From the IMG/VR virus record IMGVR_UViG_2877982868_000014: a stretch of 64,000 bases of DNA, one strand, 5' to 3'. Position numbers: made by a program. Shown here one piece after another: positions 36,001-39,000 of the stretch. The stretch comes from a virus. Taxonomy: Duplodnaviria; Heunggongvirae; Uroviricota; Caudoviricetes. Position 1 is the stretch's first letter, and each line of letters begins with the position of its first letter.

Positions 36001-39000
36001 AAACCTCGCCAGTTTAAATCCCGGTTTTCCCCGCCTGCGGCTCACCATCGCGGCAAGCCTGCGTTCCCACTCCTGACGTCCGGCGCGGATCTGAGAAAGG
36101 CTTTCCAGCGTCAGTTGCTGCCCGTTGAAGATGACAGACTTTCCCTCCAGTACGGCCATTTCCGCTTCACGGTACCGCTGTATCATTTCTCTGGCTTCTT
36201 CTGTGCTCACAACCAGCCTCCTGATGTTATCCATGGATTATCTTCCGCACGCTCCGTCCGCAGTTTTTTCTTCCGGCGACGGCGTTTTTCTGCCCCGGCC
36301 GTCAGTTCCGGGGATACCGTTTCACCAGAACGCTCCTGCGGGAAGACGAGCCACGTTTCCCGCTGTGCCCAGTCCGGTGCGGAGGGCCAGCGGATCTTTT
36401 CGTAACCATGCAGAACGGCAAGCGCATCCGCATAAACCAGCAGGTCAAACGCTTCGTTAGCGCCCCTGCCCGGTTTTCGCCATTTTCCGTCACTGCCGCG
36501 CTCTTCATAGGTCAGCTCATCGTAAAACCACCGCCCCAGCCAGTCGGGAAAGTGGATATAGTTCGGCCCTGGTGTGTCACGCCACAGGGCATTATTTACA
36601 CGATCCTTAAACGCATCCGTCTGAACCAGCCACAGCGCGACATCGCCACTGGCTCTGGCACGGCGGGCACTTCTGCCGGTATTATCCGGGAAGGTTCGGT
36701 TAATCAGCCTGTCACGGCGAAGTCCATCCCCCTTGAACAGAAACACCCTGTTGCCCAGTCCGTCACTCCGGCAACGACGCCAGAAACGATAGGCGTTATC
36801 TGTCACCCCGGCTTCCCCTCCCGTATCCACCGCCATGGCCATCAGACGCATGCGCACATCCGGATCAGAAGCCAGCGGCCATGTTTTATGGAACACATCC
36901 GTCAGCAACAAATCCCAGTCCTCCGGATATGCCGCCGGATCAACCGGCAGACTTTCACCGTTGGGACTGCAGCGCAGTGAATGCCGGATGTTGTAGCGAT
37001 CAACAATCCAGCGTTCCCCCTGCTCTCCGTATCCGGTGATCTGCACAACAAAACGGCGATTTTTACCGCCCTGTACGTCAACCGTTGCCTCAATAAAACG
37101 CACACCATCCGGCACAGATCGCCGGGGAAACGGCTCGGCACGCTGTTCAAGCAGTTCACTTTTACGCTGTTCCGTGGCTGAACGGGGCAGATAGGGTCGT
37201 CCGATATCGGTGTTCACCACCGCTTTCAGGGTCTCTTCACTGCCGGTTCGCTCATACTCTTCTTCTGCCGCCAGCAGTTTAAAAATCAGTTGTTCCCAGG
37301 TCTGAAACGCCGCAGCTGGCCCCTCCATCCAAGAAGAAGTAAATAAAAGGTAACTAAATGATTATAAGGTACTATTGAGTTATGCCCCCTACAACATAGT
37401 CCCAGATTTAGTACCTGCTTAAGCGATAAAAAAGCAAAAAAGGAAGCAATATTAATTATTGCCGCTATGCATGATCACAATGACAAATCAGAGGCGGAAT
37501 TCCGCTCTCGGAACTCACATATGAGAAACGATATTTCTTCCACCGATACCCTTTATTTGGGTATCGCAAGTAAGCCCCAAAATCTGGGTGTTGCTCTTAC
37601 TACCCAAACTACGGGTAGTTTCCGTAATTTCATGATCGAGTTGCAGATCTGCAACTCCCCCACCAGCCAACGCAATTTTGCGTTATCGTGAATATCAACA
37701 AGTTACCTCCGCAGCCGTTCCGGCGTCTTCCACTGGTAAGTATTTTTCGCGCTCTCCCTCCGTTGTTGAGAACGGCGACGGTATGCCAGCAACTCAAGGA
37801 CTCTGGTTCGTATATTGCGCATATCCACATCATTAAGCTGGATACCATCACGGCGCATCACCTCCACCACTACACGCACATAATTATCTGCGGTCATGCT
37901 GTCCGGCTGCGTGGCCTGTTCGTCAACCTGCTGGCTGATTCCGGCGACGCGGCGGATTAATCCCAGTATTTCGGCTTCTGTCATTGTGCCCCCATCGCGC
38001 TGGTGAAGAAAACAAGCTCAGATTTTTTGTAAAGAATCTGTCACGCTAAAAGATGTCGAACAAAAAACAACCTTCTTCATCATCTTTTTTACATCAAAAT
38101 AATTAAAAACAATCACTTACGCACATGATGATGATGACGATAAAATCAAAAAAATGCGCTTCTTTCCGCGCCGCCCGCCCCGTGTTCAGGCCCACCCCAC
38201 CAGGAGGACCCGCAAAAAAGGCGGCTGGTGCCGCCTTGTTGTCATAGTGAATCTGTCCCGCCTGATTTGACCATACCGCGATAATCCAGAGCTGCCACAC
38301 CTGCATCAATACGGACTTTCCAGGCCACGCCGTCAACGATAAAACCTTCCTGCTGTTCAAGGTAAGGCTCGTCACTGCCATCAAGATAAGCCACCTCGAT
38401 TGTGTCCGTTCCCTGTGCGGAAAGCATGTACCATTGTTTTTCGCTGATATCATCAAGGCGGGGATCGACGATGATATCAAGTAGCTTGTGATACGGGTTA
38501 AAGATCCCGCTGTTTTTATCAGCCCCGAAAGGTGCGGTTGAGTTAATCATCTGCAACGCGCGATCTTCCAGTGCTGCCGGAACTAAAAGGAATTTAGGCG
38601 CAATATTCAGCACTTCGCCATTTTTGTCCTTCTGTGTGCGCATCAGGTGACGTGCTGCACTAAGTCCCGGTGTTGTCAGTCCTGCTTCAATCAGGTTGCT
38701 GTGTTTTTTGTCAAACAGCGCTATTCCGTCAGAAAGTTTTACGTTGCCTGTAAGCACCAGATTAACCAGATTTCCCACCGTTCTTGATGCAGCACGGCCC
38801 ATAGCCATTGGCACCGTTGATAACTGATCAAGGTCATCATTGATTATCGCCTGGCGGGTAATGCTGAAAATATTCCCGTAAGTAGCCAGCGCGATGGGTT
38901 CACCGCGATCGCTGGTGGTGATGTATTTATATTCTGCCCCTTCCGGCACTTTGTTTAACGTTGAGAAGCCATTCATACCAACGCGGCGGGCTTCCCGGAA

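What the first reader, a model, noticed from the sequence alone, without database searches (positions are those of the whole stretch)
37480..37690. Dense cluster of six hairpins at the left end of the nested element
Six perfect or near-perfect short palindromes lie within about 200 bp between the 93-aa gene and the attachment core, including a 20-bp perfect palindrome GAGTTGCAGATCTGCAACTC. I found no tRNA-like T-arm or CCA. Candidates are a structured noncoding RNA (P4 immunity uses a small RNA), clustered protein-binding sites for integrase or a packaging factor, or stacked terminators.
Basis: seen in the sequence. Interest (0 to 1): 0.5.

Follow-up and report, generated by a model that had tools for sequence, protein, structure and literature searches.

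The report
Hairpin-rich noncoding tail of a phage satellite
The hairpin cluster is real and is the conserved, non-coding end region of a family of E. coli phage satellites, most likely a structured RNA tail and transcription barrier that also serves as a recombination joint; its exact role is untested.

Summary
Window 37480-37690 contains six perfect inverted repeats, against 0.62 per 211 nt elsewhere, and is the densest spot in the 64 kb. Both strands fold far better than shuffled sequence (z -4.6 and -5.7).

The cluster lies at the non-integrase end of a 10.4-kb satellite (a helper-embedded PICI) inserted in the terminase gpA gene of an O157:H7 lambdoid prophage. It sits between the last late gene (93 aa, phrog_1561) and the att junction.

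It is a mosaic:
- H1 is a GC-rich hairpin that is terminator-like on the minus strand.
- H2-H5 form a 123-bp core (37540-37662), 92-100% conserved even where both flanks are unrelated. The core shows no coding signature and is more conserved than the neighbouring gene.
- H6 plus an IHF-consensus box belongs to a repeated unit (1 to about 9 copies in relatives) whose stem has been replaced more than 20 times while the hairpin is kept.
- A Chi site lies between H5 and H6.

The module occurs in 707 of 5426 complete E. coli genomes, across satellites with different att sites and packaging modules. It is absent from Rfam and from phage records.

Integrase arm sites, a P4-type crr/ori and a small protein are rejected or disfavoured. 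The most likely role is a structured RNA tail, two-way transcription barrier and recombination joint. Function is untested.

The parts
37465..37702 (.). Whole conserved hairpin block (type-1 form). Homology with satellites that use other att sites starts at 37465 and runs to the stop codon of the 93-aa gene.
   Evidence: blastn: query positions 128-365 of 37338-37702 match at about 92% in roughly 500 E. coli genomes. Folding z-scores -4.6 and -5.7.
37491..37509 (-). H1: GC-rich hairpin GAGGCGGAATTCCGCTCTC (perfect 12-bp centre 37494-37505). On the minus strand it is followed by TGATTTGTCATT. Candidate 3' end of the late transcript.
   Evidence: The homologous hairpin in L002 is scored as a minus-strand terminator-like site (11 pairs, tail TACTTATTGT). 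The loop varies (AATT, AACT, ATTT) while the stem is kept.
37514..37538 (.). Two short, weak hairpins: CTCA-CATA-TGAG and AGAAA-CGATA-TTTCT.
37540..37662 (.). 123-bp conserved core (H2-H5). It is an optional, self-contained module kept at 92-100% identity even where both flanks are unrelated.
   Evidence: Of 123 sites, 44 vary among 41 unique variants, with no third-codon-position excess.
37544..37566 (.). H2: CGATACCC-TTTATTT-GGGTATCG. The stem is conserved, the loop is hypervariable, and the outer pair changes C-G -> T-A.
37569..37595 (.). H3: inner stem CCCA/TGGG (37576-37588), possible outer stem AGTAA/TTGCT. The sequence AAGCCCCAAAATC is almost invariant.
37599..37621 (.). H4: ACTACCC-AAACTAC-GGGTAGT, with an alternative AAACTAC/GTAGTTT. 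H2, H3 and H4 each carry ACCC-N7-GGGT, with centres 27 bp apart (37555, 37582, 37609).
   Evidence: Spacing read from the sequence.
37638..37657 (.). H5: 20-bp perfect palindrome GAGTTGCAGATCTGCAACTC. It also occurs as a separate module in relatives (L111, L195).
37660..37667 (-). Chi site (GCTGGTGG on the minus strand), within the motif CCCCCACCAGCCAAC that recurs at 45426.
37669..37684 (.). H6: AACGCAA-TT-TTGCGTT, the hairpin of the single 'hairpin + box' unit present in this element.
37686..37708 (+). Conserved box GAATATCAACAAGTTACC. TATCAACAAGTTA (37693-37705) is an exact IHF consensus WATCAANNNNTTR. Its TTA is the complement of the stop codon of the 93-aa gene.
37703..37984 (-). 93-aa gene (phrog_1561, unknown function), the last gene of the late/packaging zone. 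Its 3' end faces the hairpin block.
   Evidence: In 78 of 79 core-bearing loci with room on that side, a homologue lies 38-522 bp from the core in this orientation.
37326..37332 (.). Probable crossover block CATCCAA of the left att junction. The right copy is at 47774-47780. Sequence 37333-37464 is att-specific.

Best explanation
The cluster is the non-coding end module of a PICI-type phage satellite. It lies where the satellite's late/packaging operon (minus strand, ending with the 93-aa gene) meets whatever is on the att side. That can be plus-strand cargo genes in relatives, attP and int after circularisation, or here the interrupted helper late genes.

Proposed mechanism (inferred, not shown): the hairpins form in RNA. 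The late transcript runs through H6, H5, H4, H3 and H2 and ends at the H1 hairpin with its U-rich tail, giving a roughly 220-nt highly structured 3' tail. This tail would protect or process the message, or yield a 3'-UTR-derived RNA. The same hairpins, read on the other strand, would hinder transcription entering the late operon antisense. The H6-type units carry T-rich tails on the plus strand.

The 123-bp core is constrained at the sequence level beyond what a terminator needs, so something recognises it specifically; the partner is unknown.

At the DNA level (shown by comparison) the core is a recombination joint. Left and right flanks are reassorted exactly at its edges, tandem cores bracket inserts, and Chi sites flank it.
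For: Context and distribution:
- Location and co-orientation with the late operon.
- The excised circular form places the cluster between the 93-aa gene and attP-int.

Non-coding status:
- Core variable sites by codon position are 17/10/17 (plus frame) and 10/17/17 (minus frame), against 50/45/79 in the 93-aa gene.
- The core is less variable than the gene (36% versus 62% of sites).
- The plus ORF has no Shine-Dalgarno sequence, lacks an ATG in L017 copy B, and has only 11 near-identical database hits.

Structure:
- z-scores of -4.6 and -5.7.
- Palindrome centres vary like loops.
- The H2 loop is hypervariable, with a C-G->U-A change and C.A intermediates in the stem.
- More than 20 different stems occupy the same position upstream of the box.

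Termination:
- H1 scores as a minus-strand terminator-like site in L002 and has a weaker U-rich tail in the window.
- The L004 type has another hairpin plus a UUUU tail at the same place.
- Some units score as plus-strand terminators.
- In L191 and L003, plus-strand cargo genes converge on the region.
- In L111 the H3/H5 + unit module sits at another convergent junction.

Recombination joint:
- All combinations of related and unrelated left and right flanks occur around a conserved core.
- Tandem cores bracket an insert.
- Chi sites lie at the core edge and in the flanks.
Against: - There is no transcript or end-mapping evidence.
- The consensus scan finds no terminator in the window's own copy. 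H1 here has a bulge and only a modest U-tract.
- There is almost no covariation in the core, because it is too conserved.
- G.U-versus-A.C counts show no strand preference: 5 versus 6 in unit hairpins, and mixed in the core. The transcribed strand is therefore undetermined.
- The core is missing from about half of the elements that carry the 93-aa gene, so it is not essential.
- The high sequence conservation could reflect recent spread and gene conversion rather than function.
Confidence: 0.38

Rival explanations
1. The 123-bp core is an independent accessory RNA gene. It would be either a trans-acting small RNA or a cis-antisense RNA to the 3' tail of the 93-aa gene's message. It would lie in the satellite's cargo slot and end at the adjacent hairpin unit.
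For: - The module is optional and self-contained, with its own boundaries.
- The loop sequences of H3 and H4 are nearly invariant.
- It sits in the position where relatives carry plus-strand cargo genes that are followed by the same hairpin units.
- The plus strand has the stronger folding z-score.
Against: - No sigma-70 promoter-like site is found on either strand.
- Three unrelated left flanks precede the core, so no promoter is conserved with it.
- H6 lacks a U-tract in the window.
- There is no Rfam match.
Confidence: 0.15
2. The cluster is a double-stranded-DNA protein-binding platform. IHF would bind at the box, and an unknown dimeric protein would bind the three ACCC-N7-GGGT dyads (27-bp spacing) and the 20-bp palindrome. 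Together they would build a bent nucleoprotein complex for recombination, packaging or replication.
For: - An exact IHF consensus lies at 37693-37705. The consensus positions are conserved while the N positions vary across units: 58 plus-strand matches against 0.5 expected in 33.7 kb of unique flanks.
- The dyads are regularly spaced (read from the sequence).
- There is no strand bias in wobble pairs.
- Some relatives carry iteron arrays in the same region.
Against: - The stems of the unit hairpins are replaced wholesale, so they cannot be sequence-specific half-sites.
- The palindrome centres are not kept symmetric.
- In the L003 lineage two of the three ACCC-N7-GGGT dyads are broken.
- The box can equally be read as the U-rich tail of a minus-strand hairpin formed by the last codons of the gene.
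- The single IHF match in the window is not above chance on its own (2 observed, 2.4 expected).
- The module is optional.
Confidence: 0.15
3. The cluster has no function of its own. It is debris and homology left by intense recombination in the satellite's variable end region: remnants of terminators and gene ends, spread by Chi-stimulated exchange or as selfish palindromic repeats.
For: - The region is a patchwork of shuffled 40-125-bp modules.
- Units include copies of the last codons of the 93-aa gene.
- Copy number ranges from 1 to about 9.
- The core is optional.
- The satellite is Chi-rich.
- A study of P4 hotspots interprets small intergenic pieces there as remnants of recombination (PMC13586616).
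Against: - The core is more conserved than second codon positions of the adjacent gene.
- The hairpin is retained through more than 20 stem replacements, which argues for selection on pairing.
- Folding energy is far below that of shuffles.
Confidence: 0.15
4. The cluster encodes a small protein. Candidates are the plus-strand ORF (ATG 37521, 56 aa, or ATG 37467, 74 aa, both ending 37691) and the minus-strand ORF (ATG 37633 to TAA 37553, 26 aa; annotated as 52 aa in strain EH53).
For: - The plus ORF stays open in the most divergent homologue (L003), and several differences are synonymous, including CAGATC->CAAATT in H5.
- The 9-nt indel is in frame.
- The 27-nt hairpin spacing equals nine codons.
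- PGAP calls the minus ORF in one strain.
Against: - Variable sites show no third-position excess (17/10/17), unlike the neighbouring gene (50/45/79).
- The codons in the H2 loop change non-conservatively (LYL, PNL, QNM, IIL).
- There is no Shine-Dalgarno sequence.
- The start codon is missing in L017 copy B.
- The N- and C-termini differ between types.
- The minus ORF acquires a stop in L003.
- Only 11 near-identical proteins turn up among 5.8 billion, with no Pfam or PHROG family.
Confidence: 0.05
5. The hairpins are arm-type binding sites for the satellite's integrase or for AlpA within attP.
For: The cluster lies 160-360 bp from the crossover. After excision it lies upstream of int.
Against: - The same block occurs with unrelated att sites and integrases.
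- It begins where the att-specific sequence ends.
- The candidate arm repeat AAGCGATAAA (37421 and 47660) and a near-consensus IHF site (37350-37363) lie closer to the core, outside the cluster.
- The published HE-PICI doubled motif is not found.
- The distance to att varies from about 130 to more than 700 bp among relatives.
Confidence: 0.04

Closest known systems
REP/BIME mosaic elements of E. coli, in particular the IHF-binding RIP/RIB (BIME-1) elements found at the 3' ends of transcription units (Boccard & Prentki 1993; Oppenheim et al. 1993; cited from memory)
   Same: - Non-coding mosaics of short palindromic units combined with other conserved motifs.
- Placed after the last gene of an operon.
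- One motif matches the IHF consensus.
- Copy number is variable.
- Proposed roles include mRNA 3' stabilisation and attenuation of read-through.
   Different: - No REP consensus sequence is present.
- The modules are private to PICI-type satellites (median one place per genome), not dispersed chromosomal repeats.
- The stems of the unit hairpins are not conserved in sequence.
- A 123-bp unique core is included.
Structured 3' untranslated regions and 3'-UTR-derived small RNAs of enterobacteria, which end at the operon's intrinsic terminator
   Same: - A conserved, hairpin-rich stretch directly after a stop codon.
- More conserved than the coding sequence upstream.
- Ends in a GC-rich hairpin with a U-rich tail (H1, minus strand).
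   Different: - No transcript evidence.
- No Rfam family.
- The terminator is weak in this copy.
- No strand preference in wobble pairs.
Boundary or linker sequences and terminator-flanked moron junctions of lambdoid phages, and the defence hotspots of P4-like satellites (PMC9122126, PMC13586616)
   Same: - Lies at the border between a conserved late module and a variable cargo slot next to att/int.
- Recombination breakpoints coincide with it.
- Relatives carry cargo here, for example an Abi gene.
   Different: - Here the conserved border is itself non-coding and strongly structured.
- It is flanked by Chi sites.
- This O157 element carries no cargo.
P4 immunity RNA CI with seqA/seqB/seqC (Rfam C4, IsrK)
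   Different: - No Rfam hit, even at E <= 10.
- The location is different: P4 CI lies in the Bro/immunity zone near the early promoters, whereas this cluster is at the opposite end.

Membership tests
Canonical intrinsic (Rho-independent) terminator | GC-rich stem of at least 5 pairs, loop of 3-8 nt, then a run rich in T (at least 5 of 8) directly after the stem | tested here: inconclusive
   No site is found in window 37000-38400 apart from one at 37055-37070. H1 on the minus strand has a bulged stem (-9 kcal/mol) and the tail TGATTTGTCA. The homologous H1 in L002 meets the criteria, and one unit in L048 does so on the plus strand.
P4-type immunity RNA (Rfam C4 / IsrK) or any other Rfam family | Covariance-model score at or above the family's gathering threshold | tested here: not met
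   No family reaches threshold in the cluster. With E <= 10 only a 22-nt chance match appears (TMV_UPD-PK1, 19.7 bits against a gathering score of 33).
attP arm-type integrase sites / HE-PICI doubled motif tgTGTATTGCantgTGTATTGCa (PMC10111431) | A repeated motif at a fixed distance on both sides of the crossover, specific to the integrase clade | tested here: not met
   The motif is absent at up to 3 mismatches. The hairpin block is shared by elements with unrelated att sites and starts where the att-specific sequence ends. The only 9-10-mer shared by both arms, AAGCGATAAA, lies outside the cluster at 37421 and 47660.
IHF-binding site | Match to WATCAANNNNTTR with an upstream A/T-rich tract; binding by IHF | tested here: inconclusive
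   The sequence criterion is met at 37693-37705. The consensus positions are conserved across units: 58 plus-strand matches against 0.5 expected. The window count alone is not above chance (2 against 2.4). Binding cannot be tested here.
RIP/RIB (BIME-1) elements | Two REP palindromic units in inverted orientation flanking an IHF site; a dispersed multi-copy chromosomal family | tested here: not met
   No REP-like sequence is seen on reading 37465-37708. The block occurs at a median of one place per genome and only in satellites.
Protein-coding small gene | An open frame kept in relatives, an excess of third-position changes, a start codon with a ribosome-binding site, and homologues | tested here: not met
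   Variable sites by codon position are 17/10/17 and 10/17/17, against 50/45/79 in the neighbouring gene. The start codon is absent in L017 copy B. Only 11 near-identical proteins and no family are found. The frame does stay open in L003.
P4-type replication origin or cis replication region (ori/crr) | Clusters of the alpha-protein iteron TGTTCACC | tested here: not met
   About ten TGTTCACC/GGTGAACA iterons lie at 41500-41730, next to the primase gene. None is in the cluster.
cos packaging site | Homology to the helper's cosQ-cosN-cosB | tested here: not met
   The satellite's cos copy is at about 37990-38225 and matches the helper's cos at about 49290-49490. The cluster has no match to it.
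tRNA-like element or tandem-repeat array | A tRNA or tmRNA model match; head-to-tail repeats | tested here: not met
   ARAGORN finds nothing there. TRF finds no array at score >= 30.

The most novel reading that the evidence does not exclude
The 123-bp core (37540-37662) is a previously undescribed, satellite-specific structured RNA. It could be, for example, a 3'-UTR-derived RNA released from the late transcript, or a cis-antisense partner of it. Its nearly invariant loops (AAAAUCU/AAACUAC, or their complements) would contact a helper-phage or host target or a protein, tuning the satellite-helper conflict. It would be carried as an optional accessory module by about one in eight complete E. 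coli genomes.
Probability: 0.2. Interest if true: 0.6.

Novelty: new variant of a known kind. Interest (0 to 1): 0.42.

Why it matters
PICI-type satellites (classical, capsid-forming and helper-embedded) are major vehicles of virulence and defence genes in E. coli. Their non-coding DNA has hardly been described.

This work defines a widespread non-coding end module with a conserved core, repeated hairpin/IHF-box units and Chi sites. The module is found in 707 of 5426 complete genomes. It marks the border of the cargo slot and the breakpoints of modular exchange.

If the core is a functional RNA or protein platform, it would be a new player in satellite-helper regulation. If it is a terminator and recombination joint, it helps explain how these elements swap packaging and cargo modules, and it gives an annotation landmark for their ends.

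The marked Chi enrichment of the satellite relative to its helper prophage suggests a way for a Gam-less satellite to withstand RecBCD.

Tried and rejected
Searches that found nothing useful:
- Rfam at gathering and permissive thresholds: nothing.
- tRNA scan: nothing.
- Tandem Repeats Finder: nothing.
- blastn against 50,697 phage records: no match. Plasmid hits were excised or misassembled satellites.
- The species-representative genome collection was scanned twice. The protein patterns gave no relative. The DNA pattern gave only 20 chance matches in unrelated phyla. No homologues outside E. coli-type satellites were obtained, and deep covariation analysis was therefore impossible.
- Full-text search for the palindrome sequences: no paper. 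The HE-PICI papers do not mention hairpins here.
- An attempt to locate EcCICFT073 in CFT073 by coordinates hit a lambdoid prophage instead and was abandoned.

Hypotheses tested and dropped:
- P4-like crr/ori: rejected, because the real iteron origin is at 41500-41730.
- Integrase arm sites and the doubled HE-PICI motif: rejected.
- Small protein: I first misread the indel as 8 nt and dismissed the ORFs. I then corrected it to 9 nt (in frame) and took the plus ORF seriously. The codon-position test against the neighbouring gene, the missing start codon and the lack of homologues argue against it.
- Strand assignment from G.U versus A.C mismatches: no preference.
- RNAalifold covariation in the core: too little variation.

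The 93-aa protein as a hairpin binder:
- The AlphaFold model has low to moderate confidence (pLDDT 68.5) and is all-helical.
- There is no significant PDB fold match (best E 0.78) and no PDB sequence match.
- A remembered resemblance of its Arg-rich tail to the lambda N arginine-rich motif gave no BLASTP alignment.
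Full report
**Observation.** A count of perfect inverted repeats (stem >=6, spacer <=9) gives six centred in 37480-37690. The mean across the 64-kb window is 0.62 +/- 0.88 per 211 nt, and no window elsewhere reaches six. Summed stem length is 45 bp against 4.1 +/- 5.8. Folded as RNA, 37465-37702 is far more stable than dinucleotide shuffles on both strands: z -4.56 on the minus strand and z -5.65 on the plus strand, with 0 of 200 shuffles as stable. The 20-bp perfect palindrome is at 37638-37657.

**Context.**
- The window is E. coli O157:H7 DNA.
- A 10.4-kb satellite is inserted inside the large-terminase gene gpA of a lambdoid prophage. The C-terminal fragment of gpA ends near 37337, and the N-terminal fragment is at 47755-48759.
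- The satellite carries integrase, an HTH/AlpA-like gene, Bro, Icd-like, a P4-type primase, SSB, a protease-capsid fusion and a 93-aa gene.
- This is the helper-embedded PICI configuration described by Tommasini et al. (PMC10111431). Their papers do not mention hairpins at this end.
- The shared junction block is CATCCAA (37326-37332 and 47774-47780).
- The satellite carries a copy of the helper's cos at about 37990-38225, matching the helper at about 49290-49490. The 93-aa gene (phrog_1561) therefore sits in the Nu1 position.
- The hairpins lie downstream of that gene, between it and att.
- A 10.8-kb circular record of a related element places the cluster between the 93-aa gene and attP-int.

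**Conservation.**
- blastn finds the region in 707 of 5426 complete E. coli genomes. Most matches begin at 37465, where the att-specific sequence ends.
- The same block occurs in several unrelated contexts: a capsid-forming PICI next to thiM in SMS-3-5, a satellite inside a lambda-like capsid gene, and satellites in tqsA, next to hpt and next to yejO. These elements have quite different packaging modules.
- It is absent from 50,697 phage records and from Rfam.
- Pattern scans of IMG/VR and a protein-guided metagenome scan gave about 170 further loci.
- A 123-bp core (37540-37662, H2-H5) stays 92-100% identical even where the sequence on one or both sides is unrelated. Where present, it is 87-100% identical in the independently collected metagenome set.
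- Caveat: the first IMG/VR set was collected with an exact pattern inside the core, which inflates apparent invariance there. The other sets do not share this bias.
- In 78 of 79 core-bearing loci with room, a homologue of the 93-aa gene (58-100% aa identity) lies 38-522 bp away with its 3' end facing the core.
- The reverse is not true. About half of the loci found through the gene lack the core, so the core is optional.

**Architecture.**
- Between the gene's stop codon and the core there are 1 to about 9 units of 45-60 bp. Each unit is a short hairpin with an A/T loop, a T-rich stretch, and a conserved box such as GAAAATATCAACNNGTTAC.
- The window has one unit: H6 plus the box at 37686-37708.
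- The box is an exact IHF consensus (WATCAANNNNTTR). Across units the consensus positions are conserved and the N positions vary: 58 plus-strand matches against 0.5 expected in 33.7 kb of unique flanks, and 4 on the other strand.
- The single match in the window is not above chance on its own.
- The box can also be read as the U-rich tail of a minus-strand hairpin formed by the last codons of the gene.
- The unit hairpin is kept at the same position with more than 20 different stem sequences. This argues for selection on pairing rather than on sequence.
- Loci without the core carry other hairpin modules, iteron arrays or plus-strand cargo genes in the same place. The region is therefore a mosaic of shuffled palindromic modules.
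- H5 and an H3-like hairpin plus a unit also occur at a different convergent gene junction in L111. H5 alone occurs in L195.

**Coding or not.**
- I first misread an indel as 8 nt. It is 9 nt and in frame, so ORFs on both strands survive in most variants.
- The plus ORF stays open even in the most divergent lineage (L003), with several synonymous differences.
- A calibrated test argues against coding. Among 41 unique variants the core has 44 variable sites, distributed 17/10/17 over codon positions in the plus frame and 10/17/17 in the minus frame. The neighbouring gene shows 50/45/79 and is more variable overall.
- The codons lying in the H2 loop change non-conservatively (LYL, PNL, QNM, IIL).
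- There is no ribosome-binding site.
- One tandem copy lacks the start codon.
- Only 11 near-identical predicted proteins exist in a 5.8-billion-protein collection.

**Structure.**
- Covariation in the core is scarce because it barely varies. One clear case exists: the outer H2 pair changes C-G -> U-A, with C.A intermediates. There is also a U.G <-> U-A change.
- Supporting points are the hypervariable H2 loop with a constant stem, and the palindrome centres of H1 and H5, which drift asymmetrically as tetraloops would (AATT/AACT/ATTT; GATC/AATC/AATT/GATT). This speaks against dyad-symmetric operators.
- Wobble-pair counts show no strand preference (5 against 6).

**Termination.**
- The window's own copy has no consensus terminator.
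- H1 on the minus strand is a strong terminator-like site in SMS-3-5 (11 pairs, tail TACTTATTGT).
- The L004 type has a different hairpin plus a UUUU tail at the same place.
- Some units score on the plus strand.

**Recombination.**
- All combinations of related and unrelated left and right flanks occur around the core.
- Tandem cores bracket an iteron/AT-rich insert in hpt-linked elements.
- A Chi site lies at 37660-37667 (minus strand), between H5 and H6.
- Chi is strikingly enriched in the satellite: 12 sites in 10.4 kb, against 5 in the other 53.5 kb. The window total is 17 against 2.7 +/- 1.6 expected.

**Rejected ideas.**
- P4-type crr/ori: the real iteron origin, TGTTCACC repeated about ten times, is at 41500-41730.
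- Integrase or AlpA arm sites.
- A cos function.
- The 93-aa protein gave no informative structure or homology.

**Conclusion.** The finding is real and belongs to a widespread, undescribed non-coding end module of E. coli PICI-type satellites.
- The best-supported reading (confidence about 0.4) has three parts. It is a structured RNA tail of the late operon ending at H1. It acts as a two-way barrier at a convergent junction. Its conserved core serves, at the DNA level, as a Chi-flanked joint for modular exchange.
- What recognises the core, and on which strand it acts, remains open.
- An independent small RNA, a DNA-protein platform and non-functional recombination debris are the main rivals.

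Noticed in passing
window 37333-47780 (Chi sites at 37660, 38911, 39083, 41149, 41175, 42055, 42738, 43638, 44897, 45394, 45426, 46941): Chi (GCTGGTGG) is about 12-fold denser in the satellite (1 per 0.87 kb; 8 of 12 on the gene strand) than in the surrounding prophage (1 per 10.7 kb). The window total is 17 against 2.7 expected. Related satellites show 1 per 1-2.8 kb. This may protect a Gam-less satellite from RecBCD and drive its mosaicism.
   Followed up: partly
window 37990-38225 and 49290-49490: The satellite carries a close copy of the helper prophage's cos region, including the stretch next to the small-terminase gene. It lies directly upstream of the 93-aa gene, which thus occupies the Nu1 position.
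   Followed up: partly
window 41500-41730: About ten copies of the P4 alpha-protein iteron TGTTCACC/GGTGAACA, in both orientations around an AT-rich stretch, lie between the primase gene and the next gene. This is the satellite's probable origin of replication.
   Followed up: partly
window 37326-37332 and 47774-47780; arms 37421 and 47660; 37350-37363: The att crossover block is probably CATCCAA. AAGCGATAAA occurs once in each arm, about 100 bp from the crossover. A near-consensus IHF site lies about 25 bp from the crossover. The published HE-PICI doubled motif is absent.
   Followed up: partly
window 44980-45270 (and 45110-45195): This is the second most palindrome-dense spot. It holds long hairpins and three copies of CTGGATTCCAG-like operators around TATAAT boxes in the Bro/immunity zone, probably the satellite's regulatory switch. 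No C4/IsrK Rfam hit was found.
   Followed up: no
window 38242-40131: The satellite encodes its own ClpP-like prohead protease/major-capsid fusion protein. The helper's copy of the same kind of gene is disrupted by IS1203/IS629 (ALIL pseudoknots at 11753-11869 and 32657-32773).
   Followed up: no
L017 975-1500 (also L009, L054, L034, L178): Two tandem copies of the core, about 434 bp apart, bracket an origin-like insert with three ATAACCCGC and three GCGGGTTAT iterons around an AT-rich stretch. The element is an hpt-linked capsid-forming PICI.
   Followed up: partly
L126, L142, L171 (directly after the stop codon of the 93-aa gene homologue): Satellites that lack the core carry four to five TGTCAC iterons at about 10-11-bp spacing in the same region. 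This is another candidate cis-acting site.
   Followed up: no
L107 about 1392-1414 (minus orientation): A 26-nt perfect palindrome GTCGAGTTGCAAATTTGCAACTCGAC, almost identical to the L003-type H5, lies inside an SRAP/YedK-like gene of an unrelated 50-kb viral contig. About 0.01 such matches are expected by chance. It is unexplained.
   Followed up: no
window 37548-37616: H2, H3 and H4 each contain ACCC-N7-GGGT, with centres exactly 27 bp apart. They can also pair with one another in alternative long-range helices (for example 37547-37563 with 37601-37617).
   Followed up: partly
window 54770-54979 and 63519-63601: An STnc100 sRNA (Rfam, 176.7 bits) and a tRNA-Ala(CGC) call lie in the prophage part of the window.
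   Followed up: no
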